From Candidatus Woesearchaeota archaeon (GTDB lineage: Archaea; Nanobdellota; Nanobdellia; SCGC-AAA011-G17; JACPNG01): DNA of 26,013 nt. The notes under the pieces were generated by a model that was given only the letters and a program-made list of their open reading frames with translations, had not been told where the DNA came from and did not search any database. The stretch is from the NCBI GenBank assembly GCA_017609845.1, contig JAFCDD010000007.1:1-26013 (forward strand), written 5' to 3'. This document shows positions 3,696-25,594 of this stretch, piece by piece. The position numbers were made by a program, and so were the translations under genes. Position 1 is the first letter of the stretch; each line of letters begins with the position of its first letter.

Positions 3696-4583
3696 ATGGA
3701 GCTTGATAAGTTAAAAGAAAAAGTACAAAAAACATTGAACATAAGTGTAACACATATAGAACCACTCCCTTATATAAGTTCAAGTTTACGTTATAAATTA
3801 ACTTCTGAGGATGAACTTTTTATGTTAAAATTACCGGATGACAATGTGCCTGCCCCCCCTAGCCAACTAAAAAAACTTATACGATATTTATTTGAAAAAA
3901 AATTACCAATAATATTTCAAGAAAGATTCGAAAGAAGAACTCAAGAAAGAAGAGTAAGTTTAGAAGCAACAGTTTTACAAAATTGGGAACAATATAATAT
4001 AGATGCAGCAAGAGTAAGAGTTACAGATAAAAGAACAATGATACTTCTTGATTATATTATGGGACAAGATTATAAAGATCTTATTGAAGAAGGAAGATTA
4101 ACAAAAGAACAATTTGATAGTCTTATAGAAAATATCAGTTACATAAGATATGTTGCTAAGAGGGAAGAAAATCTAATGCTCCTTCATAATGATTTGCATA
4201 TAGGAAACTTTATGTTTGATCAAGAATCAAGAAAATCAAGAGCAATAGATCCAGGAATGATTCTCAATCCTTCTTTAAACTTTAAAGAAATAGACGCATA
4301 TCTTAATTTGTTTTTTTGTTATTCATTAGTATCTAATTTATTCTTTGATTCAAATAGAACACGTTATATTAGAGAAGAAATTTTAAATGCTTTTATAAAA
4401 ACATTAGAAAGACCAACAATACAAACAATGATTTCATTAAACAACCCAGTTTCACCACTATATTTAAGATACCAAAAAACTGGTAAAAAACCAGACCCAC
4501 ACAAAAACTTTAACTTATATAATACTTTTAATAAACAAAACTTTAAAATAGTGCAGGAAGCCTTACAAAAACAATATAAATAA
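3696..4583 (+). CDS. Protein-kinase-like (PKL) fold phosphotransferase (Kdo/WaaP/APH-like), substrate unknown
   Basis: beta3 Lys (FMLKLP), alphaC Glu (SLEATVL), hinge LLDYIMG, catalytic loop HNDLHIGN and DFG-like IDPG. ATG 3696 is preferred over TTG 3684. Confidence 0.7.
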   Translation: MELDKLKEKVQKTLNISVTHIEPLPYISSSLRYKLTSEDELFMLKLPDDNVPAPPSQLKKLIRYLFEKKLPIIFQERFERRTQERRVSLEATVLQNWEQYNIDAARVRVTDKRTMILLDYIMGQDYKDLIEEGRLTKEQFDSLIENISYIRYVAKREENLMLLHNDLHIGNFMFDQESRKSRAIDPGMILNPSLNFKEIDAYLNLFFCYSLVSNLFFDSNRTRYIREEILNAFIKTLERPTIQTMISLNNPVSPLYLRYQKTGKKPDPHKNFNLYNTFNKQNFKIVQEALQKQYK

Positions 4584-4602
4584 TTAAACAATTAATATAA
4601 AT

Positions 4603-5193
4603 ATGGAACCTTACATCCAAACAACAGACTATACTGCTGCCCCATCTTGTTTATTATCTATTCTTAATCACTTTAATAAACTAGAACTTAAAAGAAAAAA
4701 TGAATTTAAAATATGGATGAAATCAGCATTATTGCCAATAAGGGCTTCATCAATCTATGCCTTAGCAATAACAGCAAAAAAACACGGATTAAAACCAAAA
4801 ATAGTGGCAGGAAATTTAGATTACGAATACCCTAACTACAGGTTTAAATCTTACAAATTAAAAGAAATAAACCAAGCAAAAATTACTTCCAAACTATACT
4901 TAAAAAAAGCACAAAAAGAAAATATAAAAATAGAAAAAAAAGATTTTGATCTCGATTATGTTAAGAAATTATTAATGAAGAAAAAAATATTATTATTAAG
5001 ACTTAATATTGGAATAATAAGAAATATAAAATCAACATCCAATTATGTAGTAGTATACGGCTATGGAAATAACAAATTTCTTGTCAATGATTCAAGATTA
5101 GGTAAACTACTAATCCCAGAAGAACAAATGAAAGAAGCATTCGAAACAGTAATAACAAAATGTAAGAGAGACAGCAGAATGATTATTTTTTAA
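4603..5193 (+). CDS. Peptidase C39-like (DUF3335-type) protein with catalytic Cys and His substituted
   Basis: YIQTTDYTAAPSCLL matches the family pattern Y.QTT.FTCGPACL, EFKIW matches EL.LW, NYVVVYG matches HWVVV.G, and LVND matches YVHD. Confidence 0.72.
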   Translation: MEPYIQTTDYTAAPSCLLSILNHFNKLELKRKNEFKIWMKSALLPIRASSIYALAITAKKHGLKPKIVAGNLDYEYPNYRFKSYKLKEINQAKITSKLYLKKAQKENIKIEKKDFDLDYVKKLLMKKKILLLRLNIGIIRNIKSTSNYVVVYGYGNNKFLVNDSRLGKLLIPEEQMKEAFETVITKCKRDSRMIIF

Positions 5194-5194
5194 A

Positions 5195-5518
5195 ATGCTA
5201 AGAATTAACAATAAAATAATAACTAAAGAAACTAAAATCCTCAATTCTTCTTTATCTAAATTCCTAGGATTAATGTTCAGAAAAAAACAAACATTGATAT
5301 TCAAATTCAAAAAAGAAGTAAAACATTCAATTCACATGTTCTTTGTTTTCTTCCCAATAGATGTTATCTTCTTAGATAAAAATAATAAGATAATAGAAAC
5401 AAAAATGAACCTTAAACCATTCTCAATCTACTTTCCAAAAAACAAGTTTAATACACTAATAGAGTTACCAAAAGGGAAAATTAATAATATTAAAAAAGAA
5501 GACAATATCTCTTTTTAA
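5195..5518 (+). CDS. DUF192 (UPF0127) family protein
   Basis: GLMFRK, SIHMFFVFFPIDVIFLD, LKPFS and IELPKG. Confidence 0.88.
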   Translation: MLRINNKIITKETKILNSSLSKFLGLMFRKKQTLIFKFKKEVKHSIHMFFVFFPIDVIFLDKNNKIIETKMNLKPFSIYFPKNKFNTLIELPKGKINNIKKEDNISF

Positions 5519-5553
5519 TAAGAACACAAAGAATGGAAATTATAAATATTTCT

Positions 5554-6468
5554 CTAACAAGGCTCTATTTTATAATCTTTTAAGTAATTATATATAGAAT
5601 AAACAGCATTTACTCCTTGAGCAACACCAGTTATTGCCTGTTTAAATTCAAAGTTTGTACAATCTCCAGCAGCATAAATTCCTTTAACATTTGTTTCAGA
5701 CATTCCATTGATGATAATCTCTCCTTTTTCATTTAATTCAACTCCAAGCTTCTCTGCCAGCTCGGCCTTAACAACAAACCCAACCTCAATAAACAAACCA
5801 TCTAGTTTTAATTCTCTCAAATTAGAATCTAATCTAACCTTTTCAACAAAGTCTCTTCCTAAAATCTCAGTAACATTGGTATTATTAATAATCTCAATTT
5901 TATCATTTTCTTCTACTCTTTTAAGGTTTATTGGCTCAGCTCTTATTTTTTCTTTTCTATAAATGATATAAACTTTCTTAGCATACTGGCTTAATAATAA
6001 TGCTTCCTTAGCAGCAGAATCCGAACCACCAACAACACCAACAAATTTATCTTTGAATAATGGCCCATCACAAGTTGCACAGTAACTTACTCCCTTATTT
6101 GTAAATTCTTTTTCCCCAGGAACATTTAACTTTCTATGTTCTGCTCCGGTAGAAAAGACAATGGTTTTAGCTTGATATTCGCCATCTTCAGTCTTTATCA
6201 AGAAACAATCCCCATTTTTTTCAATATCAATAACTTTTTCTTTTTTAAATTCTATATTTTTATAACTTCTTGCGTGATCCTCTATACTTTTAGCTAACTC
6301 CATTCCTGTTACATTTGTAAAACCAGGATAATTCTCAACCAAATGCGTTGTTTTTATCAAACCACCAAAATCAGGATCAAAAATAATAGTTTTCAAATTA
6401 AATCTTGCCGAATATATGGAAGCTGATAAACCAGTTACCCCTCCCCCAATAATGGCCACATCATACAT
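5554..6468 (-). CDS. trxB: Thioredoxin reductase
   Basis: IIGGGVTG FAD motif, VENYPG, redox CATC (GVSYCATCDG), GGSDSA nucleotide motif and GIYAAGD. Confidence 0.95.
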   Translation of the reverse strand: MYDVAIIGGGVTGLSASIYSARFNLKTIIFDPDFGGLIKTTHLVENYPGFTNVTGMELAKSIEDHARSYKNIEFKKEKVIDIEKNGDCFLIKTEDGEYQAKTIVFSTGAEHRKLNVPGEKEFTNKGVSYCATCDGPLFKDKFVGVVGGSDSAAKEALLLSQYAKKVYIIYRKEKIRAEPINLKRVEENDKIEIINNTNVTEILGRDFVEKVRLDSNLRELKLDGLFIEVGFVVKAELAEKLGVELNEKGEIIINGMSETNVKGIYAAGDCTNFEFKQAITGVAQGVNAVYSIYNYLKDYKIEPC

Positions 6469-6586
6469 AACCCATTAGAACTTAGATTTATATAAAAAGG
6501 TTTTGTTTAAATTAACAATTCTTTAACAACAAAATTTATATATCCATTTATATGCTATATTAGCTTAAATAACCTAGAGGAATAAA

Positions 6587-7732
6587 GTGAACAAAGATCT
6601 GATTGTAGGAATCCCCTCATATAATGAAGAAGACTCTATTTCTTTTGTTGTTAAACAAATTGACAGGGGATTAACAAGATATTTTCCAGAATTAAGAACA
6701 CAAATAATAAATGTTGACAATAATTCACCAGACAATACAAAACAAGCATTCTTAAATACAAAAACAATAAATGAAAAAATTTATATTTCAACGCCACCAA
6801 AAATAAAAGGAAAAGGGAATAATTTCTATAATTTATTTAAATATGCACAAGAAACAGAAGCAAAAGCAGTAATAGTTGTTGATGCAGACCTAAAATCAAT
6901 TACGCCAGACTGGATAAAAAGACTTGGACAGCCAATTTTAGATGGAACAGACTTTGTTTCACCACTATACACAAGACATAAACATGACGGTACAATAACA
7001 AACAACATAGTTTTCCCATTAGTCTATTCTTTATTTAACAAATACATAAGACAACCAATAGGAGGAGAATTTGCGTTTTCAAAAAAATTAATTGATCATT
7101 ACCTTAATCAGCAATGGAATGAAACAACAAAACAATACGGCATTGATATATTTATAACAATGAATGCTTTAATAGGAAATTTTCCCACAAAACAAACCTT
7201 CCTCGGCACAAAAATACATAAGCCTTCTGCGCCAAAATTAGGACAAATGTTCACTCAAGTAGTTAATACGTTATTTGATCTTATTACATCTAACTATGAA
7301 ATAGTACAAAGATATAATGGGGAGAAAAAACAAGAACCAGAAATAATAGTCCCAGAATTTAAAATTTCTGATATAGAAGTTAATATGAATAATTTAAAAG
7401 AAACATCACATAAATGTTTTGATGAAAATAAAGAATTTCTTAGAAGAACACTAAATAAAGAAATCTTTAAAAAAATTGATTACTCATTCAATAACGGAAT
7501 TGTAGTTGATTCAGATTTATGGTCAGACATTGTATTTGAATTTTTAAATAAATATAAAAAAAATAACCTGGAATTGATTGAAGCTCTTAAGCCATTATAC
7601 CTTGCGACAACCCACACTTTTATAGAACAAACAAAAAATATCCCTTCACATCAAGCAGAAGAACTAATTATAAAACAAGCAGAAATTTTCTGGGAGAAAA
7701 AACACAGATTTCTTGGGATCAAAAATAACTAA
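6587..7732 (+). CDS. GT-A glycosyltransferase, glucosylglycerate-synthase (Ggs)/mannosylglycerate-synthase-like
   Basis: GIPSYNE, GKG, DxD (VDADLKSITPDW), RHKHDGTITN, IRQPIGGEFAFS, YGIDIFIT and LGTKIH. GTG start with GAGG upstream. Confidence 0.75.
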   Translation: MNKDLIVGIPSYNEEDSISFVVKQIDRGLTRYFPELRTQIINVDNNSPDNTKQAFLNTKTINEKIYISTPPKIKGKGNNFYNLFKYAQETEAKAVIVVDADLKSITPDWIKRLGQPILDGTDFVSPLYTRHKHDGTITNNIVFPLVYSLFNKYIRQPIGGEFAFSKKLIDHYLNQQWNETTKQYGIDIFITMNALIGNFPTKQTFLGTKIHKPSAPKLGQMFTQVVNTLFDLITSNYEIVQRYNGEKKQEPEIIVPEFKISDIEVNMNNLKETSHKCFDENKEFLRRTLNKEIFKKIDYSFNNGIVVDSDLWSDIVFEFLNKYKKNNLELIEALKPLYLATTHTFIEQTKNIPSHQAEELIIKQAEIFWEKKHRFLGIKNN

Positions 7733-8933
7733 ACAATCTTTTCTGTTCATTTAAATTTCTAATTAATTTGCTGTCTTTAATTAAATTAGAAACATCAATT
7801 CTTAAATTATTCAAAGCAATCTCTTTCATTTTTTCTAAAGCTTTATTTTTATCATCAAAACTTTCATAATTAACATTTAAAATCTTTCTACAAGCATTTC
7901 TAACAACCCAAACTCCCAAAGAAGCCCAATACTCTGGAGTTTCAAACCTCAAAACCAATGCGCTTGCCTGTCTCTTAATACCAACTAGATACTCTAGTAT
8001 TGCTAATCTAGTAGCATAATAACCTCCAGCAGTATTAAATGCATACCCCTTTCTTCCAAATACATCTTCATAATCATGAGCAGTTTTCAATCTCCAGTCA
8101 GGATTCCATGCACTTCCAGGCAAATAATTTTCAAATAAATCAAAAGAGAAAGGTCCAGGAATAAGTAAAATTAAATAATAGTTACCCATAAATTTTCCAA
8201 AAAACAACCTATGTTCATTAATAAAATTACATTCCTTAATCTTCTTAATTATGCTTTTGCCAATAATATCATCTACTGCAGTTATGCTCCATCGTGTAGG
8301 AACCAACTTACGGCTAGCCTTAACCCCCAACAAACCCAAAGATAATAATTTAACTAATTGACCTTCCTCAAAATTCTTACCTAAATATAACAAAGCATCA
8401 TTAGCCTTTAAATCTGTATCATCCACGACTTTATCTATTTTCTTTGGAACCTTAACATTATCAACTATTTTTGCTTTAAGTAAGGGAGCCCTAGGGCCCT
8501 GAGGACTATGAAATCTATCAAAATTAATTTCCAAACTAACCTTCTTCTTTAATTTAATCTCAACATCAACGTCTTTAATTCCCATCCCAATTTCCCTGGT
8601 AATATCTAAAAACTTATGAGAACTTTTGACACCAGTCATAAATTTAGAATTAACTAAATTACTCCTAAATTCAATAACATCTTTAATATCATAATCATTA
8701 TCAGCCCAGTATTTTTCAGCATCATACAGCCAAGCATCCTTAACCTTTTCAGTAGGAGACAAAATACCAACATTAACTTTAGGATATTTTAATTTAGAAC
8801 CAACAAAAACTGCAGGAGGACTACTTCCAAAAAATTCATCTATCTTAACATTAACGTTCTTAAATAAATTTGCAGTCCTCAAGGGCCTAGGCATTAATTT
8901 ATTGTATTTATAATTAATTTCTGCTATATCCAT
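7719..8933 (-). CDS. nreA: NreA archaeal PCNA-interacting DNA repair protein
   Basis: GSSPPAVFVGS..YPKVNVG, RKLVPTRWSITAVD, AGGYYATRL, Y...LGVW.VR and a C-terminal PIP box QKRLFSYF. Confidence 0.9.
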   Translation of the reverse strand: MDIAEINYKYNKLMPRPLRTANLFKNVNVKIDEFFGSSPPAVFVGSKLKYPKVNVGILSPTEKVKDAWLYDAEKYWADNDYDIKDVIEFRSNLVNSKFMTGVKSSHKFLDITREIGMGIKDVDVEIKLKKKVSLEINFDRFHSPQGPRAPLLKAKIVDNVKVPKKIDKVVDDTDLKANDALLYLGKNFEEGQLVKLLSLGLLGVKASRKLVPTRWSITAVDDIIGKSIIKKIKECNFINEHRLFFGKFMGNYYLILLIPGPFSFDLFENYLPGSAWNPDWRLKTAHDYEDVFGRKGYAFNTAGGYYATRLAILEYLVGIKRQASALVLRFETPEYWASLGVWVVRNACRKILNVNYESFDDKNKALEKMKEIALNNLRIDVSNLIKDSKLIRNLNEQKRLFSYF

Positions 8934-9005
8934 ATAAATAAAATAAAATACTAATTAAAAAGTCTTATGTATAAATGGCCCGTACATATATACTTGATAG
9001 CAACA

Positions 9006-9013
9006 TTTTTAAA
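9006..9013 (+). promoter_or_regulatory. TATA box for tRNA-Val
   Basis: TTTTTAAA lies 27-34 nt upstream of the tRNA 5' end. The same octamer precedes tRNA-Tyr and tsaC. Confidence 0.55.
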
Positions 9014-9039
9014 TCCATTATATTCCTAATTCTACATAT

Positions 9040-21292: not shown

Positions 21293-21841
21293 TTATGGCC
21301 TTATTATTTTAGCTACTTTTTTGGTTAAATCAATGATCGTAGAAGGTTTGCCACTTAGTGGTCCGTAGTCAATTATATAATCTACTTTATTTCTTATTCT
21401 TCTAGAGATATCATCTATTTTTGTTATATTATTTTCTCCACTTTTATTAACAGAAGTTGTAATAAAAGGCACATTTGCTTTTCTTATTAAATCACAAAAT
21501 TCATGTTTTGGAATTCTCACTCCAACGGTTTTACCAAAACTTACATTATTTGGGAATATTTTTCTTTTTAATTTTAAAATAAAAGTATATTTCCCAGGCA
21601 ATTTTTCTATGTAAGCTTTTTTATAATGGCAATTTTTGTATATCCAATTCTTGCTCGGAGCAATAACAGAAAAGGGCTTTTTAGATTTCTTAATTTTTCT
21701 TATTTTTTCAACTAAATCTTTATTTAGGGAATTACACCCAATACCATATATAGTGTCTGTTGGGTAAATAAAAATCTTACTCTTAATCTCTTTTATTATT
21801 CCCTTTCTTTTCTTAAATTCCTTAAAATCCATGATTTCCAT
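21293..21841 (-). CDS. tsaC: L-threonylcarbamoyladenylate synthase, short TsaC/YrdC form without the SUA5 domain
   Basis: IYPTDTIYGIGC, KPFSV, PGKYTFIL, VGVRIP, TTSVNKSG and PSTIIDL. Confidence 0.92.
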   Translation of the reverse strand: MEIMDFKEFKKRKGIIKEIKSKIFIYPTDTIYGIGCNSLNKDLVEKIRKIKKSKKPFSVIAPSKNWIYKNCHYKKAYIEKLPGKYTFILKLKRKIFPNNVSFGKTVGVRIPKHEFCDLIRKANVPFITTSVNKSGENNITKIDDISRRIRNKVDYIIDYGPLSGKPSTIIDLTKKVAKIIRP

Positions 21842-21873: not shown

Positions 21874-21915
21874 CTTCTTTCTTGGAATGTAACTACTTTA
21901 AAATAGTTGTAAAAT

Positions 21916-21930
21916 CGAAAGATTTATATA
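21916..21930 (+). promoter_or_regulatory. BRE + TATA promoter, predicted start near 21953
   Basis: CGAAAGA-TTTATATA is a close match to the archaeal BRE/TATA consensus. Confidence 0.55.
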
Positions 21931-21965
21931 TGACTTATAACATCTAAAATATATCACCTCTTTTT

Positions 21966-22005
21966 CCCAGGAAGAAGTCCTTTACGGGACTTTTTCTTGG
22001 GTTTT
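21966..22005 (+). terminator. 16-bp RNA hairpin followed by a U tract (terminator, attenuator or sRNA element)
   Basis: CCCAGGAAGAAGTCCT-TTAC-GGGACTTTTTCTTGGG-TTTT: 13 Watson-Crick pairs and 3 G.U pairs with no mismatch on the + strand. Confidence 0.6.
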
Positions 22006-22017
22006 ATACTCATTAAA

Positions 22018-22025
22018 TTTATAAA
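22018..22025 (+). promoter_or_regulatory. TATA box for a probably leaderless pafA-like transcript
   Basis: TTTATAAA lies 28-35 nt upstream of ATG 22053 and is flanked by the inverted repeat TATACTC/GAGTATA. Confidence 0.5.
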
Positions 22026-22052: not shown

Positions 22053-23534
22053 ATGAGTATAGAAACCTTTGTAGGAATTGAAACAGAGTTTGCTGGTTTA
22101 ACACACAAACAGGACAGAACACATTGTGGTTCTGGTGAGGAAATTATTTCTGCTTATTTATCTTATCTTAGACAAAAACACCCGAGAAGAGGAGTTGTAG
22201 CACAAGGCAAATCAAAGTCAAATCTTTTTTTAAGTAATGGTGCAAAATTTTACCCCGATACTGGGAAACATGCAGAATATGCTACACCAGAATCATCAAC
22301 AATACTAGATGTGATTCGTTATGACAAAGCCGGAGAAAGAATTATTGAACTTGCAGCAGACCATTTTAATAGAACAAACCCGGGAATAACCATAGAAATT
22401 TATAAAAATAATTCTGATGAGTCAACAAGATCGTCAACAAGATATAAACGCTCAGAAACACAAACATATGGTTGTCACGAGAATTATTTGATCGAAAGTT
22501 CTTTATATGAAAATGTTGACGACCTTGAATACAAATTAGCTCCATTTTTAATAACTCGCCAGTTATATGCCGGTTCTGGAAAAATTGGACAAAGATATTT
22601 TAGTGAAGAGCAAAACATATTCCAACTTTCACAAAGAGCAGATTTTATGGAAAATATCTTTGGTAAATGTTCAACATCAGAAAGACCACTTATATTCAGA
22701 AGAGATGAACATCATATAAGAAAAGGAAAAAGATTACATGTTTTGTGTGGAGACTCTAATCTAATGGAAATAGCAAACTATCTAAAAATAGGAACAACAG
22801 AATTGGTGTTGCGTGCAATAGAAGAAGGACATATCGAAGAAATAAGAGTTATGGATTCCCACTATGAAATGGGAAGAATATCAAGAGACCAATCAATGAA
22901 ATGGCAAGGAATTAGACTAGAAGATGGAAGAGAATTTTCTGCTTTGGATATACAAAGAATTTATTTCGAATTAATATATAAGAATTATTATAACAAAAGA
23001 AACGAAGAAACAAATGAAATAATAAAGTGGTGGGACCTTTTATTGTGTGCCTTAGAAGAACCATTAGGATACGGATTTAGATTACTTTCAAGAACAACAG
23101 ACTGGGGCGCAAAACTTTCTATAATCAAGAGAAAAATGAAAAGAACTCCAGAAATTTCTTCTTATGATCATCCACGTATAAAGAGAATATCCATACAATA
23201 TCATAAAGTAGATAGGAAGAAGGGCCTTTATTACATCTTAGAAAAGGAAGAAAGAGTTCAAAGGATATTAACCGACGAACAAATTGAAGATGCAATGGTT
23301 AATCCTCCACCAAACAATCGTGCCCATTTTAGAGGAAATGCAATTATGGCAGGAATTGTTGAAATAGCAGATTGGTCTATTACAACCATCAAATCAAATG
23401 GCGAATTATATAGAATTAAACTAGATGAACCAAGAACAGGAACCAATATAACAAGAGAAGACTTTCAACTTCCTCCTCAAGAATTAATTCTTAAACTAAG
23501 AAACCAAGGATTTAATGTAGAAAGAACACAATAA
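22053..23534 (+). CDS. pafA: Pup-ligase/deamidase family protein (carboxylate-amine ligase fold), PafA-like subtype
   Basis: GIETEF, SNLFLSNGAKFYPDTGKHAEYATPE, DKAGERI, KNNSD..YGCHENYL, PFLITRQL.AGSGK, LSQRAD, ST..RP.I.RRDEHH, RLHV.CGDSN, LKIGTT.LVL, QYH....KGLY, TDEQIEDAM.NPP..NRA.FRG and a C-terminal DW. Confidence 0.9.
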   Translation: MSIETFVGIETEFAGLTHKQDRTHCGSGEEIISAYLSYLRQKHPRRGVVAQGKSKSNLFLSNGAKFYPDTGKHAEYATPESSTILDVIRYDKAGERIIELAADHFNRTNPGITIEIYKNNSDESTRSSTRYKRSETQTYGCHENYLIESSLYENVDDLEYKLAPFLITRQLYAGSGKIGQRYFSEEQNIFQLSQRADFMENIFGKCSTSERPLIFRRDEHHIRKGKRLHVLCGDSNLMEIANYLKIGTTELVLRAIEEGHIEEIRVMDSHYEMGRISRDQSMKWQGIRLEDGREFSALDIQRIYFELIYKNYYNKRNEETNEIIKWWDLLLCALEEPLGYGFRLLSRTTDWGAKLSIIKRKMKRTPEISSYDHPRIKRISIQYHKVDRKKGLYYILEKEERVQRILTDEQIEDAMVNPPPNNRAHFRGNAIMAGIVEIADWSITTIKSNGELYRIKLDEPRTGTNITREDFQLPPQELILKLRNQGFNVERTQ

Positions 23535-23551: not shown

Positions 23552-25594
23552 TTAATACAAAACCCCACTAATGTTATTTTCCTTCTTAAATTTAATCACA
23601 TTATCTACAAAACTTTCTATCTTAATCTCATGACTTACTAAAATAATTTGTTTTATGTTTAACTCCTCTAAAACAATCCTCATTCTGTCTAATTGTTCAT
23701 CACTAAAACCATCAGTAGGCTCGTCCAATATTAGTAAATCTTTAGTTTTTATATCAGTAATTAAATTATTTATCACCTGATTTAACGCTAATCGATAAGC
23801 TAAAGCAGCAGCATTTTTCTCTCCACCACTCAAATACAAATAATCCAAATCATGCCCTCCTTGTGTAATCAATGGTGAAAAATCTTTATCTAGATTAATC
23901 TTCAGATTCTCATTGTCAACAAGAATATCAAACCACTTCTGGAATAAGGAATTAAAATCAGAATGAACTCTAAACATCACATTCTTTTCAATAAGGTCAA
24001 TCATATTAATAAAATGATCATTGATCCAATTTTTAATCTCATTTAAATAAACAAAAATTTCCTTAATTTTAGTCATGTCTTCTATTTCTTTTTCAAGAGA
24101 TGCAATTAAATCCAAAGAATTTTTAAATTCTACTTCTTGGCTATTCAATTCCAGTTCAATGTCTCTTAACTCTTTTTCTAATGTTTCTAACTCTTCTTTA
24201 TCCTTCTCCAAATCTAATTCCTTATATTCTTCTATCTTATTTGTTAGATCTAATTTATTTTTTTCTAGAAGTTCAACCTCATTTTTTAATTTTTTCAGTT
24301 CTTCTCCAATAACTCTTTTTCTTAAATCATAAACACTAACTTCTCTCTTCTTTAATTCATTAATACCAATAACCTTTTCCCTTTCCTGTAACAGTTCAAA
24401 CTCTTTTTTTAATCTTTTTAAGCTATTTTCAACAAATTCTTTTTCCTCTTTACCATTTTTAATTTCTTCTCTATATCTAATCATCTCTTTATTTTCCTCT
24501 CCAATCACCCTTTTCTTATATTCTTCTTCTACTTTTTGCTTACATGTGGGACAAGTATCCAGTCTTTGAATACTATTAACAATCTTCCTAGAATTCTCCT
24601 GATTAATGGTTGCCACATTTATTTTATTTGATATTAATCTTAAACTCTTTTCAGCATCATCAATTTTATTTCTTATTTCATCTATTTTTTCCTTAATGCC
24701 CCCTTCCTTTATATCCTCTATTTTTATATTCTTTAATTTATTATCAATATCTTCTATTTCTGAATTACTATTGCTTATTCTTTCTAACTTATTTTTAATA
24801 TTTACTTCAATAATACTAAATTGTTTTTTTAATTCATTAATCTCAATAATTTGTTTTTCAATTTCCTTAATCTTTTTTCTTCTCTCATTAACTTCATTAT
24901 TTTTCTTCTCAAAAATTTGTTTTATCTCATTAATCCTTATTTCTATCTCTTTCTTTTTATTCTCTTTTTCTAATTTTTCTTGTTTTTTCTCCTCCAATCT
25001 TTCTATTTTCCCTTTAAGCACATTAGTTTTCTCTCTTAACCCAGTTAGGAAAATCTTTGCGTTCTCTTTTACAACTTTGTACTTATCAATTCCAAATACT
25101 TTCCTTAATGTATCAAGCCTTAGTTCTTTATCACCCAATAAAATCTTTTTCATCTCTTCTTGAGGAGTATAAACAGTGTAATGAAAAATCATTGATTTAG
25201 ACTTTGTTAACAATTCTTGAGGATAGTTTAAAAGATCTAAAACTGCTTGTTTTAATTCCATTGCACTTAAATCTTTTTTCTCTCCATTTATTATAATATA
25301 ACCAGAACTTTGTGTTATCGTTGTTCCCCTTCTTAATACCCTTTTTATTATTATATCCTTATTATCAATATTAAAAAATAATTCTACACAACCCTCATTA
25401 ACACCGGCCCTTAATAAAGAACCGCCACTCAAAGAACTTTTCCTCAGTCCAAATAAAACAAAATCTATTGCTAGTAATATTGTGCTCTTACCGCTTCCTA
25501 TGTTTCCTGCCAACAACAAATTTCCTTCTGGAAAAGTTATTTCTCCATTAACATAAGATCTTATATTATTTAGCCTTATTTTTTTCAAAATCAT
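23552..25594 (-). CDS. rad50: Rad50/SbcC DNA repair ATPase, short coiled-coil form
   Basis: Walker A GNIGSGKST, Zn hook CPTC centred in a coiled coil, signature LSGGE, Walker B LILDEPT and H-loop VSH. Confidence 0.95.
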   Translation of the reverse strand: MILKKIRLNNIRSYVNGEITFPEGNLLLAGNIGSGKSTILLAIDFVLFGLRKSSLSGGSLLRAGVNEGCVELFFNIDNKDIIIKRVLRRGTTITQSSGYIIINGEKKDLSAMELKQAVLDLLNYPQELLTKSKSMIFHYTVYTPQEEMKKILLGDKELRLDTLRKVFGIDKYKVVKENAKIFLTGLREKTNVLKGKIERLEEKKQEKLEKENKKKEIEIRINEIKQIFEKKNNEVNERRKKIKEIEKQIIEINELKKQFSIIEVNIKNKLERISNSNSEIEDIDNKLKNIKIEDIKEGGIKEKIDEIRNKIDDAEKSLRLISNKINVATINQENSRKIVNSIQRLDTCPTCKQKVEEEYKKRVIGEENKEMIRYREEIKNGKEEKEFVENSLKRLKKEFELLQEREKVIGINELKKREVSVYDLRKRVIGEELKKLKNEVELLEKNKLDLTNKIEEYKELDLEKDKEELETLEKELRDIELELNSQEVEFKNSLDLIASLEKEIEDMTKIKEIFVYLNEIKNWINDHFINMIDLIEKNVMFRVHSDFNSLFQKWFDILVDNENLKINLDKDFSPLITQGGHDLDYLYLSGGEKNAAALAYRLALNQVINNLITDIKTKDLLILDEPTDGFSDEQLDRMRIVLEELNIKQIILVSHEIKIESFVDNVIKFKKENNISGVLY

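What the first reader, a model, noticed from the sequence alone, without database searches (positions are those of the whole stretch)
22053..23534. Intact PafA-type Pup ligase in a DPANN archaeon with no Pup, Dop or proteasome genes beside it
Seen: a 493-aa ORF keeps the family's catalytic set in order: E10/E12 (GIETE), D69 and E75 (D-T-G-K-H-A-E-Y), GCHEN, SQRA, RDEH, RLHV..GDSN, YH and the C-terminal DW. The D-x-G-x-H-x-E spacing, the SN.FL.NG motif and the lack of a long Dop loop point to the ligase PafA rather than the deamidase Dop. Its neighbours are tsaC and rad50. I found no small ORF ending in GGE, GGQ or SGE in the window. Known: PafA joins the C-terminal Glu of Pup to target lysines for proteasomal degradation in Actinobacteria and Nitrospirota (UBact systems elsewhere) and is normally clustered with pup, dop, mpa and prcBA; archaea typically tag with SAMP/Urm1 proteins. 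Inference: an undescribed archaeal isopeptide-tagging system with an unlinked or novel modifier, perhaps feeding the native PAN-20S proteasome. It could also act on host proteins or ligate a small molecule. Archaeal promoter elements suggest it is domesticated.
Basis: partly seen in the sequence, partly recalled or inferred. Interest (0 to 1): 0.88.

Follow-up and report, generated by a model that had tools for sequence, protein, structure and literature searches.

The report
Orphan PafA/Dop-family enzyme in DPANN archaeon
A tiny-genome (DPANN) archaeon has picked up, as a single inserted gene, an intact relative of the bacterial enzymes that attach (PafA) and remove (Dop) the protein tag Pup. 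It is neither of the two, and no tag gene was found, so its partner is unknown.

Summary
The 493-aa ORF at 22053-23534 is real and belongs to the Pup-ligase family (PF03136, E 4e-104). It keeps 52 of 63 positions that are invariant in both PafA and Dop, including the whole catalytic set. The "PafA rather than Dop" call is not supported. NCBIfam, PDB sequences and the predicted fold favour Dop slightly, and my own HMMs are tied (349 vs 342 bits). The ML tree puts it as a long orphan branch on the Dop side, and AU tests reject neither sisterhood. Residues around the catalytic Asp are PafA-like, the alpha-loop is 0/9 PafA-like, and the Dop-loop is truncated. An 11-aa insert, rare in the family, sits at the Pup C-terminal pocket. 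No homologue exceeds 42% identity. Two close relatives share the mre11-rad50-[slot]-sua5-rpoH-rpoB block. Their slot is empty or holds a SnoaL gene, so the ligase is a lineage-specific single-gene insertion, not a chimera, and its codon usage is native. No Pup-like ORF or Mpa/PAN was found in the 525-kb, 72%-complete assembly; 20S and Cdc48-like genes are present. Nine of 400 other genomes of the phylum have homologues, and some carry full Mpa-Dop-Pup-ligase operons. This scan has noted such genes in at least 9 other DPANN genomes.

The parts
22053..23534 (+). 493-aa Pup-ligase-family (PafA/Dop) ORF, a single copy in the genome
   Evidence: The AF2 model has pLDDT 83 and pTM 0.89. The fold matches Dop 7oxy at TM 0.85 and PafA 4bjr at TM 0.79.
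22074..22091 (+). GIETEF (residues 8-13), the GhExE ATP/Mg motif with E10 and E12
   Evidence: Invariant in alignments. The motif is defined in PMC7947786.
22092..22220 (+). Residues 14-56, the position of the Dop-loop. It is 43 residues long here, against 32-33 in canonical PafA and 62-76 in canonical Dop. The conserved Dop-loop sequence is absent.
   Evidence: The role of the Dop-loop is described in PMC8599861.
22257..22277 (+). D69-T-G-K-H-A-E75: the catalytic Asp with PafA-type one-residue insertion and Gly
   Evidence: and Table 1 of PMC7947786.
22416..22463 (+). An 11-residue Ser/Thr/Arg/Lys-rich insert (ESTRSSTRYKRSETQT region, residues 122-137) between KNNxD and YGCHEN. It is predicted to be disordered.
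   Evidence: The spacing is 16 residues here against 5 in 218 of 228 homologues. pLDDT is below 50. It lies next to the residue equivalent to Mtb PafA S119 in the Pup C-terminal pocket (PMC5952411).
22638..22685 (+). Alpha-loop region (ADFMENIFGKCSTSER, residues 196-211). It is Dop-like at 3 of 9 diagnostic positions and PafA-like at 0 of 9.
   Evidence: The model shows no long helix here.
22695..22715 (+). FRRDEHH in place of the family's NTRDEPH. The R-D-E-x-H residues are kept, and the invariant Asn-Thr pair is replaced by Phe-Arg.
22018..22025 (+). TTTATAAA, a candidate TATA box for the gene itself, about 30 nt before the ATG and inside the inserted segment. This would imply a near-leaderless mRNA (inference).
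   Evidence: Sequence. This stretch has no counterpart in the relatives.
21888..22010 (.). Conserved non-coding element: a TATA-like box, a 16-bp hairpin at 21966-22001 and a T tail. It is also present in relatives that lack the ligase gene, so it is not part of the acquired gene.
   Evidence: Three-way alignment, hairpin, no Rfam family.
21293..21841 (-). Sua5/YrdC (tsaC-like) gene, one flank of the insertion slot
   Evidence: PF01300. It is 59% identical to the syntenic gene in L041.
23552..25594 (-). rad50-like gene, the other flank of the slot. It is convergent with the ligase, 17 nt apart.
   Evidence: AAA_23/SMC_N. It is 68% identical to the syntenic gene in L041.

Best explanation
This is a stand-alone, horizontally acquired member of the PafA/Dop (Pup-ligase, glutamine-synthetase-fold) family, kept under selection in a Woesearchaeota-type DPANN genome. 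It is neither PafA nor Dop; it sits about equally far from both. Shown: the GhExE motif, the catalytic Asp69 and the Arg/His/Asn residues that bind nucleotide, Mg and the gamma-glutamyl phosphate are all present, and the predicted fold matches Dop and PafA. Inferred: it still uses ATP to form, or to cleave through, a gamma-glutamyl-phosphate intermediate on a C-terminal Glu/Gln of a partner. The gene came in alone. No Pup-like gene exists nearby or in the 525 kb assembled. The pocket that holds Pup's C-terminus is remodelled by an 11-aa insert and by NT-to-FR next to the RDE triad. I therefore think the partner is not a canonical, co-inherited Pup. It could be another protein or peptide C-terminus, or a very divergent modifier. 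The direction of the reaction (ligase or amidase) is unresolved. The feature mix is PafA-like residues around the Asp, no Dop-loop and a non-PafA alpha-loop. This is closest to the engineered 'Dop2PafA' variant of Hecht et al., which was a weak hydrolase and not a ligase.
For: Family membership and catalytic set. Equidistance from the two families: NCBIfam 306 vs 284 bits with both below cut-off, own HMMs 349 vs 342, and AU p 0.418 for Dop and 0.125 for PafA. Fold. Single-gene insertion into a conserved mre11-rad50-[slot]-sua5 block, with the slot empty in L041 and holding a SnoaL_2 gene in L043. Zero of 40 genomes of the same family and order carry a homologue. Native codon usage (GC3 0.195 against a median of 0.223; KL at the 67th percentile) plus an intact 1.5-kb frame in 30% GC DNA argue for selection. 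No Pup-like ORF was found by C-terminal motif, by two HMMs or by PF05639, while the positive controls rang. Two other DPANN genomes, 92-95% complete and carrying a homologue, also lack a Pup-like ORF. The insert at the Pup pocket is rare in the family. The Dop2PafA phenotype is described in PMC7947786.
Against: The assembly is only 72.6% complete, so an unlinked modifier may simply be missing. Pup-like proteins are short, disordered and hard to detect, and my profiles rest on 6-8 sequences. In five DPANN genomes, homologues do sit next to Pup-like ORFs ending in GGQ, SGQ, SGE or SAE, which shows that the family's ordinary job exists in this class. No biochemical data exist. Whether the Pup-binding groove is kept could not be tested, because co-folding was not available.
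Confidence: 0.45

Rival explanations
1. The gene is the ligase, or a bifunctional ligase/deamidase, of a genuine Pup-like tagging system. Its small modifier gene is unlinked and lies in the unassembled quarter or so of the genome, or is too divergent to recognise. Tagged proteins would go to the native 20S proteasome through a Cdc48-type unfoldase.
For: The catalytic set is complete. Single-enzyme loci with an adjacent Pup-like ORF ending in Glu exist in the same class, in G265 (...YRQPSGE) and G043. Full Mpa-Dop-Pup-ligase operons occur in G084, G233 and G403, and the G403 contig is clearly archaeal. G000 has 20S alpha and beta genes and a double-AAA Cdc48-like gene. The assembly is 72.6% complete.
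Against: Wherever I found a Pup-like ORF, it lay next to a ligase gene. Here the inserted segment holds only the ligase. There is no Mpa/PAN-type OB domain. No Pup-like ORF was found by any method. The Pup C-terminal pocket carries an 11-aa insert that is rare in the family.
Confidence: 0.3
2. One reading: a PafA-type Pup ligase proper, working like actinobacterial PafA.
For: D-x-G-x-H-x-E spacing. PafA-like residues at 7 of the roughly 13 diagnostic positions outside the alpha-loop (S56, F59, the T70 insertion, G71, A77, T78, D440). A short loop. AU does not reject sisterhood with PafA (p 0.125).
Against: TIGR03686 scores 283.8 bits against a cut-off of 551.3. The alpha-loop is PafA-like at 0 of 9 positions. 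Dop scores higher by profile, by PDB sequence and by fold. The ML tree places it outside the well-supported PafA clade, and holding it there costs 25.8 lnL units against 5.5 for Dop. The C-terminal tail is Dop-length. No Pup was found.
Confidence: 0.1
3. A functionless passenger: a remnant of a transferred Pup locus that is on its way to being lost.
For: It is lineage-specific, sits in a variable slot, has no partner genes and lies on a long branch (1.3 substitutions per site). Two family-invariant residues (the Asn-Thr of NTRDEPH) are replaced.
Against: The frame is intact over 493 codons in 30% GC DNA. Codon usage is fully native, which implies long residence. It keeps 52 of 63 invariant positions, including all catalytic ones. 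The AF2 model is confident.
Confidence: 0.1
4. An assembly or binning artefact: a bacterial fragment joined to an archaeal contig.
For: None beyond the bacterial affinity of the family.
Against: Both flanks are syntenic with two independent relatives' contigs. GC and codon usage match the genome. The gene is internal to the contig, with archaeal genes on both sides.
Confidence: 0.03

Closest known systems
Dop, the deamidase/depupylase of Pup (Acidothermus cellulolyticus; PDB 4B0R, 5LRT, 7OXY; TIGR03688)
   Same: Same fold (TM 0.85, rmsd 2.7 A, 32% identity). It is the best PDB sequence match (5.8e-65). The catalytic Asp, GhExE, RDE and RxH residues are shared. The F-x-E-x-x-x-G start of the alpha-loop, P79 and a C-terminal tail of Dop length are also shared.
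   Different: TIGR03688 scores 306 bits against a cut-off of 492. There is no DHAHPE motif. The conserved 40-65-residue Dop-loop is reduced to about 10 unrelated extra residues. There is an 11-aa insert before YGCHEN. No Pup, Mpa or PafA partner was found.
PafA, the Pup-protein ligase (Corynebacterium glutamicum PDB 4B0T, 4BJR; TIGR03686)
   Same: Same fold (TM 0.79). D-x-G-x-H-x-E spacing. PafA-type residues at F59, G71, A77, T78 and D440. No long Dop-loop.
   Different: TIGR03686 scores 284 bits against a cut-off of 551. The alpha-loop has none of the 9 PafA-specific residues. It falls outside the canonical PafA clade in the ML trees. No Pup gene was found.
Engineered Dop2PafA variant (Hecht et al. 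2020, PMC7947786)
   Same: Its combination of features matches: PafA-type residues around the catalytic Asp, no Dop-loop, and a non-PafA alpha-loop.
   Different: That variant is a laboratory construct on a mycobacterial Dop backbone; it depupylated weakly and did not ligate. The alpha-loop here is not canonical Dop either.
Mpa-Dop-like-Pup-like-ligase operons of other DPANN genomes and metagenome contigs (G084, G233, G403; P0003, P0007, P0122), seen here
   Same: The Dop-position paralogues of these operons are the query's highest-identity matches (about 40-42%). The host class is the same.
   Different: Those loci carry an OB-domain AAA ATPase, a small ORF ending in GGQ or SGQ, and a second ligase paralogue. 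The window has only the one gene.
Single PafA/Dop homologues of Planctomycetes, used as the outgroup in PMC7947786
   Same: Single copy, similarly distant from PafA and Dop (29-31% identity there), with only partial alignment to the Dop-loop.
   Different: Those are bacterial. I did not identify them among my unlabelled homologues, so kinship is untested.

Membership tests
Pup-ligase family (Pfam PF03136; PafA/Dop, GS-fold carboxylate-amine ligases) | Profile match above the curated cut-off across the domain | tested here: met
   349.5 bits against a cut-off of 25, residues 6-433.
Pup-ligase family (Pfam PF03136; PafA/Dop, GS-fold carboxylate-amine ligases) | GhExE motif, catalytic Asp and the other family-invariant active-site residues | tested here: met
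   E10, E12, D69, H73, E75, H142, N144, R195, R211, R217, D218, E219, H221, R227, H229, D234, N236, R423 and R427 are kept. In all, 52 of 63 invariant positions are kept.
Pup-ligase family (Pfam PF03136; PafA/Dop, GS-fold carboxylate-amine ligases) | Two-domain PafA/Dop fold | tested here: met
   AF2 pLDDT 83 and pTM 0.89. Foldseek TM 0.85 to Dop and 0.79 to PafA.
PafA (TIGR03686 equivalog) | Score above the NCBIfam equivalog cut-off | tested here: not met
   283.8 bits against a cut-off of 551.3.
PafA (TIGR03686 equivalog) | PafA-type alpha-loop (H-x-W-E-G-x-S-S-A-T-T-R-S), critical for ligase activity (PMC7947786) | tested here: not met
   The query reads F-M-E-N-I-F-G-K-C-S-T-S-E, PafA-like at 0 of 9 positions.
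PafA (TIGR03686 equivalog) | One-residue insertion and Gly after the catalytic Asp (D-V-G-S-H-P-E) | tested here: met
   D69-T-G-K-H-A-E75.
PafA (TIGR03686 equivalog) | Falls within the PafA clade | tested here: inconclusive
   The ML trees place it outside the clade (support 99* for the clade without it). The AU test of forced sisterhood gives p 0.125 and delta lnL 25.8.
PafA (TIGR03686 equivalog) | A Pup substrate gene in the genome, usually adjacent | tested here: not met
   None in the window or in the 525-kb, 72.6%-complete assembly. Absence from the unassembled part cannot be shown.
Dop (TIGR03688 equivalog) | Score above the NCBIfam equivalog cut-off | tested here: not met
   306.4 bits against a cut-off of 492.3.
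Dop (TIGR03688 equivalog) | Conserved Dop-loop of 40-65 residues before strand beta2 (PMC8599861) | tested here: not met
   43 residues lie between GhExE and SNxFL, against 62-76 in canonical Dop and 32-33 in PafA. The conserved loop sequence is absent.
Dop (TIGR03688 equivalog) | D-H-A-H-P-E around the catalytic Asp | tested here: not met
   The query reads D-T-G-K-H-A-E.
Dop (TIGR03688 equivalog) | Falls within the Dop clade | tested here: inconclusive
   It sits unresolved at the base of the Dop-side supergroup (76/83 support for the 42-row set). The AU test of sisterhood to canonical Dop gives p 0.418 and delta lnL 5.5.
Pup-proteasome system (mpa-dop-pup-prcBA-pafA) | Mpa/ARC-type AAA ATPase with proteasomal OB domains | tested here: not met
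   PF16450 gives no match in G000. The AAA genes found are a Cdc48-like double-AAA gene and smaller AAA-domain genes that I did not classify. The genome is incomplete.
Pup-proteasome system (mpa-dop-pup-prcBA-pafA) | Ligase or deamidase activity on Pup and isopeptide formation on Lys | not testable with these tools
   This needs enzyme assays and mass spectrometry.

The most novel reading that the evidence does not exclude
A PafA/Dop-fold enzyme, captured as a lone gene by an episymbiotic DPANN archaeon, has been re-tooled at the pocket that normally holds Pup's C-terminus. It now acts on a non-Pup partner. That partner could be the C-terminal Glu/Gln of one of its own proteins or a host protein, a new kind of modifier, or pupylated proteins of a neighbouring organism. 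This would be a new branch of gamma-glutamyl protein modification in archaea.
Probability: 0.25. Interest if true: 0.8.

Novelty: new variant of a known kind. Interest (0 to 1): 0.5.

Why it matters
The papers I read (PMC7947786, PMC2588565) report pupylation only in bacteria. No paper in the searchable library couples pupylation with Woesearchaeota, Pacearchaeota or the other DPANN names I searched. One taxonomy monograph mentions pupylation once alongside DPANN. This gene adds a third kind of case to the full operons and the single-ligase-plus-tag loci I saw in other DPANN genomes: an intact enzyme, equally distant from ligase and hydrolase, that arrived alone and has been kept. If it is active, it either points to a hidden modifier or shows that this fold can be used for something other than Pup. 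It is also a natural sequence intermediate relevant to the question of how a hydrolase becomes a ligase. On its own, without a partner or biochemistry, it is a moderate finding.

Tried and rejected
1. I looked for a Pup-like gene in six ways. C-terminal G-[GSA]-[EQ] and [YFW]x(2-5)[GSAP][GSA][EQ] motifs over all stop-to-stop frames gave only spurious frames inside other genes, for example C15:6578-6817, which is antisense in a GTPase gene. A list of 33 intergenic small ORFs ending in E or Q contained nothing Pup-like. PF05639 found nothing. A six-sequence profile run through the genome search gave no hit, and its controls rang. An eight-sequence C-terminal HMM run with hmmsearch --max gave a best E of 2.9.
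2. I searched both junctions for small ORFs of at least 20 codons and found none.
3. I considered the enzyme's own C-terminal Gln (…NVERTQ) as a fused tag and rejected it, because that tail aligns with the ordinary Dop C-terminal tail.
4. I tested whether the protein is an N-terminal PafA / C-terminal Dop chimera like P0002. The partial scores differ by at most about 12 bits either way, so it is not.
5. I looked for target-site duplications or terminal repeats around the insertion and found only weak AT-rich matches, the best being 26 nt at 73%.
6. I looked for public sequencing runs holding the locus, to test expression. None was listed.
7. An Rfam search of the upstream conserved element found nothing above threshold.
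8. The position in the tree stayed unresolved with FastTree, quick PMSF and careful PMSF trees, and the AU tests were not decisive.
Full report
Observation. The window is the whole 26,013-bp contig C6 of a 525-kb, 61-contig assembly rated 72.6% complete and 0.35% contaminated. The ORF at 22053-23534 (+) encodes 493 aa. An in-frame stop lies 15 nt upstream of the ATG. The protein matches Pfam PF03136 (Pup_ligase) at E 3.9e-104 over residues 6-433. Its neighbours are a Sua5/YrdC-family gene (21293-21841, -) and a Rad50-like SMC ATPase (23552-25594, -). The archaeal rpoH, rpoB'', rpoB', rpoA' and rpoA'' genes lie a few kb away. RpoB relatives carry the names Woesearchaeota, Nanoarchaeia or Nanoarchaeota. 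GC content is even along the contig.

Is it intact? I took the positions that are at least 93% invariant and identical in my sets of canonical Dop (71 sequences) and canonical PafA (77 sequences). The query keeps 52 of these 63 positions. They include E10/E12 (GhExE), D69, H73, E75, H142, N144, R195, R211, R217-D218-E219-x-H221, R227, H229, D234, N236, R423, R427 and W441. The notable changes are R-to-K65, P-to-A74, and the Asn-Thr of NTRDEPH, which reads Phe-Arg here (FRRDEHH). An AlphaFold2 model built on a nine-sequence alignment is confident (pLDDT 83, pTM 0.89). It superposes on Dop (7oxy, TM 0.85, rmsd 2.7 A) and on PafA (4bjr, TM 0.79, rmsd 3.6 A).

PafA or Dop?
- NCBIfam gives Dop 306 bits and PafA 284 bits, both far under the equivalog cut-offs of 492 and 551.
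- PDB sequences give Dop 5.8e-65 and PafA 2.4e-47.
- HMMs I built from canonical sets give 349 bits (Dop) and 342 bits (PafA). The N-terminal third leans slightly to PafA and the middle part leans to Dop.

I then used the diagnostic positions of Hecht et al. 2020 (PMC7947786, Table 1). The query is PafA-like at seven positions: S56, F59, the extra residue T70, G71, A77, T78 and D440. It is Dop-like at four: P79, and F, E and G of the alpha-loop. It matches neither at nine. Within the alpha-loop itself it is PafA-like at 0 of 9 positions. That paper found alpha-loop replacement critical for turning Dop into a ligase. Its construct with PafA-type supporting residues, no Dop-loop and a Dop alpha-loop remained a weak depupylase and did not ligate. 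The stretch where the Dop-loop sits is 43 residues long here, against 32-33 in PafA and 62-76 in Dop, and it lacks the conserved loop sequence. The C-terminal tail has Dop length.

Phylogeny. I ran FastTree on 162 sequences, and quick and careful PMSF IQ-TREE runs on 72. All of them put the query on a long terminal branch (1.2-1.35 substitutions per site). It sits unresolved at the base of the Dop-side supergroup, outside the well-supported canonical PafA clade. The AU tests reject neither forced sisterhood. PafA gives p 0.125 with delta lnL 25.8, and Dop gives p 0.418 with delta lnL 5.5. So it is an orphan lineage of the family and belongs to neither characterised subfamily.

A rare structural feature. 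Between KNNxD and YGCHEN, 218 of the 228 homologues that match the pattern have five residues. The query has sixteen (ESTRSSTRYKRSETQT), and only three other divergent members have long inserts at this place. The insert is predicted to be disordered (pLDDT below 50). It immediately precedes the residue equivalent to Mtb PafA S119. That residue lines the pocket for Pup's C-terminal region, and bulky substitutions there abolish both pupylation and depupylation (PMC5952411). Together with the NT-to-FR change, this suggests that the partner-binding end of the active site is remodelled. This is an inference.

Origin. No protein exceeds 42% identity to the query, either in the 5.8-billion-sequence word-indexed search or in the exhaustive search of 1.84 billion cluster representatives. 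None of the 40 genomes searched from the same family and order has a PF03136 match. In a sample of 400 other genomes of the phylum, nine do. The two nearest relatives I could find have RpoB' 75-77% identical and lie on contigs of 43.6 and 86 kb. They share the gene order RNase J-like, VIT1, mre11, rad50, [slot], sua5, a 467-aa protein, rpoH, rpoB and onward. Rad50 is 68% identical and Sua5 is 59% identical to the window's copies. In one relative the slot is a 170-bp spacer. In the other it holds a 120-aa SnoaL_2 gene on the opposite strand. In the window it holds the ligase gene. So the gene is a lineage-specific single-gene insertion into a variable slot, or much less parsimoniously a repeated loss. 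Because both flanks are syntenic, the contig is not chimeric here. I saw no convincing target duplication or terminal repeats. The gene's codon usage is ordinary for this genome: GC3 is 0.195 against a median of 0.223, and its codon-usage KL divergence from the genome is at the 67th percentile for genes of its size. Either it has been resident for a long time, or the donor had the same composition. In 30% GC DNA an unselected 1.5-kb frame would soon acquire stops, so the intact frame argues for purifying selection. This is also an inference. dN/dS cannot be computed without close relatives.

The promoter claim. That block is about 90% identical in both relatives that lack the ligase, far more conserved than the flanking proteins. 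It is therefore an independent conserved element. It could be a small RNA, as another first-stage note proposes, or the sua5 control region. It is not evidence that the ligase has been domesticated. The inserted segment starts just past this block. It carries its own TTTATAAA at 22018-22025, about 30 nt before the ATG, which would give a near-leaderless mRNA (inference).

Partners. The assembly has 20S alpha and beta genes (C3 and C15) and one 813-aa double-AAA Cdc48-like frame. It has no PAN/Mpa-type OB domain. It also has ThiF-type E1-like genes. I found no Pup-like ORF by PF05639, by C-terminal motifs over all 12,791 stop-to-stop frames, in a list of intergenic small ORFs ending in E or Q, or with two profiles built from Pup-like ORFs I had found beside homologues. 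The first profile found its own sources in G265, G403 and G043 but nothing in G407 or G238. Those two are DPANN genomes, 92-95% complete, that also carry a lone homologue. There is no room for a gene next to the ligase: its stop is 17 nt from the rad50 stop.

Context in other DPANN genomes (seen in passing). Three genomes of the same class (G084, G233, G403) carry operons with four parts: an AAA ATPase with proteasomal OB domains, a long-loop Dop-like paralogue, an 83-86-aa ORF ending in ...QYKQQGGQ...YRQPGGQ or ...EKSGQ, and a second ligase paralogue. The G403 contig also encodes ribosomal protein L37ae, RpoP and prefoldin, so it is archaeal. G265 (0.6 Mb, 30% GC) has a single PafA-leaning enzyme followed by a 60-aa ORF ending in ...YRQPSGE, and G043 has a similar pair. 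The query's highest-identity matches (P0003, P0007, P0122) are the Dop-position genes of operons of this type. So Pup-type tagging does exist in this archaeal class. The window's gene stands out from these because it is alone. The searchable literature does not couple pupylation with Woesearchaeota, Pacearchaeota or the other DPANN names I searched; one taxonomy monograph mentions pupylation once alongside DPANN. Earlier notes of this scan report similar orphan genes and one complete locus in at least nine other DPANN genomes. I treated these notes as leads, and my own searches agree with them.

Mechanism and verdict. What is shown: membership of the PafA/Dop family, a complete catalytic apparatus, the fold, single-gene acquisition, native composition, and the absence of recognisable partners in the assembled 525 kb. 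What is inferred: the enzyme binds ATP/Mg and forms, or works through, a gamma-glutamyl-phosphate on a C-terminal Glu/Gln of a partner, as both PafA and Dop do. I rate the readings as follows.
- 0.45: an orphan enzyme whose partner is not a canonical, co-inherited Pup. This is supported by the lone arrival and the remodelled pocket. Direction is unresolved, with the feature mix leaning to hydrolase by analogy with Dop2PafA.
- 0.30: a member of a real Pup-like system whose modifier is unlinked and unassembled.
- 0.10: a true PafA-type ligase.
- 0.10: a decaying passenger.
- 0.03: an artefact.

Interest is moderate (0.5). An archaeal PafA/Dop-family enzyme would surprise specialists, but this locus alone gives no handle on the substrate. 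The fuller DPANN operons are the better entry point.

Noticed in passing
window 21888-22010: A roughly 120-bp non-coding block with a TATA-like box, a 16-bp hairpin at 21966-22001 and a T tail. It is about 90% identical in two relatives (L041 about 5545-5690; L043 about 5570-5720) whose flanking proteins are only 59-68% identical. It is present whether or not the ligase gene is there. No Rfam family matches. It is probably a small RNA or a conserved control region between rad50 and sua5.
   Followed up: partly
L013 (G084:C15) 6484-12140; L014 (G233:C21) 7343-12669; L015 (G403:C26) 3825-9348: Complete bacterial-style Pup loci in DPANN genomes of the same class. Each has an AAA ATPase with proteasomal OB domains, a long-loop Dop-like gene, an 83-86-aa ORF ending in GGQ or SGQ, and a second ligase paralogue. 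The G403 contig also carries L37ae, RpoP and prefoldin genes, so it is archaeal.
   Followed up: partly
L016 (G265:C11) 7312-9482; L018 (G043:C7) 7388-8918: Single Pup-ligase homologues immediately followed by small ORFs ending in ...YRQPSGE (60 aa) and ...NYQVGSAE (97 aa). In G265 a C39-family peptidase gene comes next. These look like minimal one-enzyme tagging modules whose tag already ends in Glu.
   Followed up: partly
L017 (G407:C15) 7112-11509: In a genome of the same order, a very divergent lone Pup-ligase homologue (531 aa) is followed by a TldD-type metallopeptidase gene and a second 452-aa ORF that looked like its PmbA partner; only the first was confirmed by Pfam. No Pup-like ORF was detected anywhere in that 92%-complete genome.
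   Followed up: partly
L029 562-1959 (protein P0002): A metagenome contig reads proteasome-like gene (by eye), a 465-aa Pup-ligase-family gene, canonical pup (PF05639, ...YVQKGGQ), proteasome-like gene (by eye). The N-terminal third of that enzyme scores as PafA (293 vs 185 bits) and its C-terminal two thirds as Dop (423 vs 376). It is either a natural PafA/Dop hybrid or an assembly chimera.
   Followed up: partly
G000:C51:7647-8957 (L024/L026): A 504-aa open frame with two ThiF (E1-like) domain matches in tandem. This could be a fused, pseudo-dimeric E1-type activating enzyme in the same genome.
   Followed up: no
L043 5159-5521: In one close relative, the rad50-sua5 slot that holds the ligase in the window holds a 120-aa SnoaL_2-domain gene instead. 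The slot appears to be a hot spot for gene gain.
   Followed up: partly
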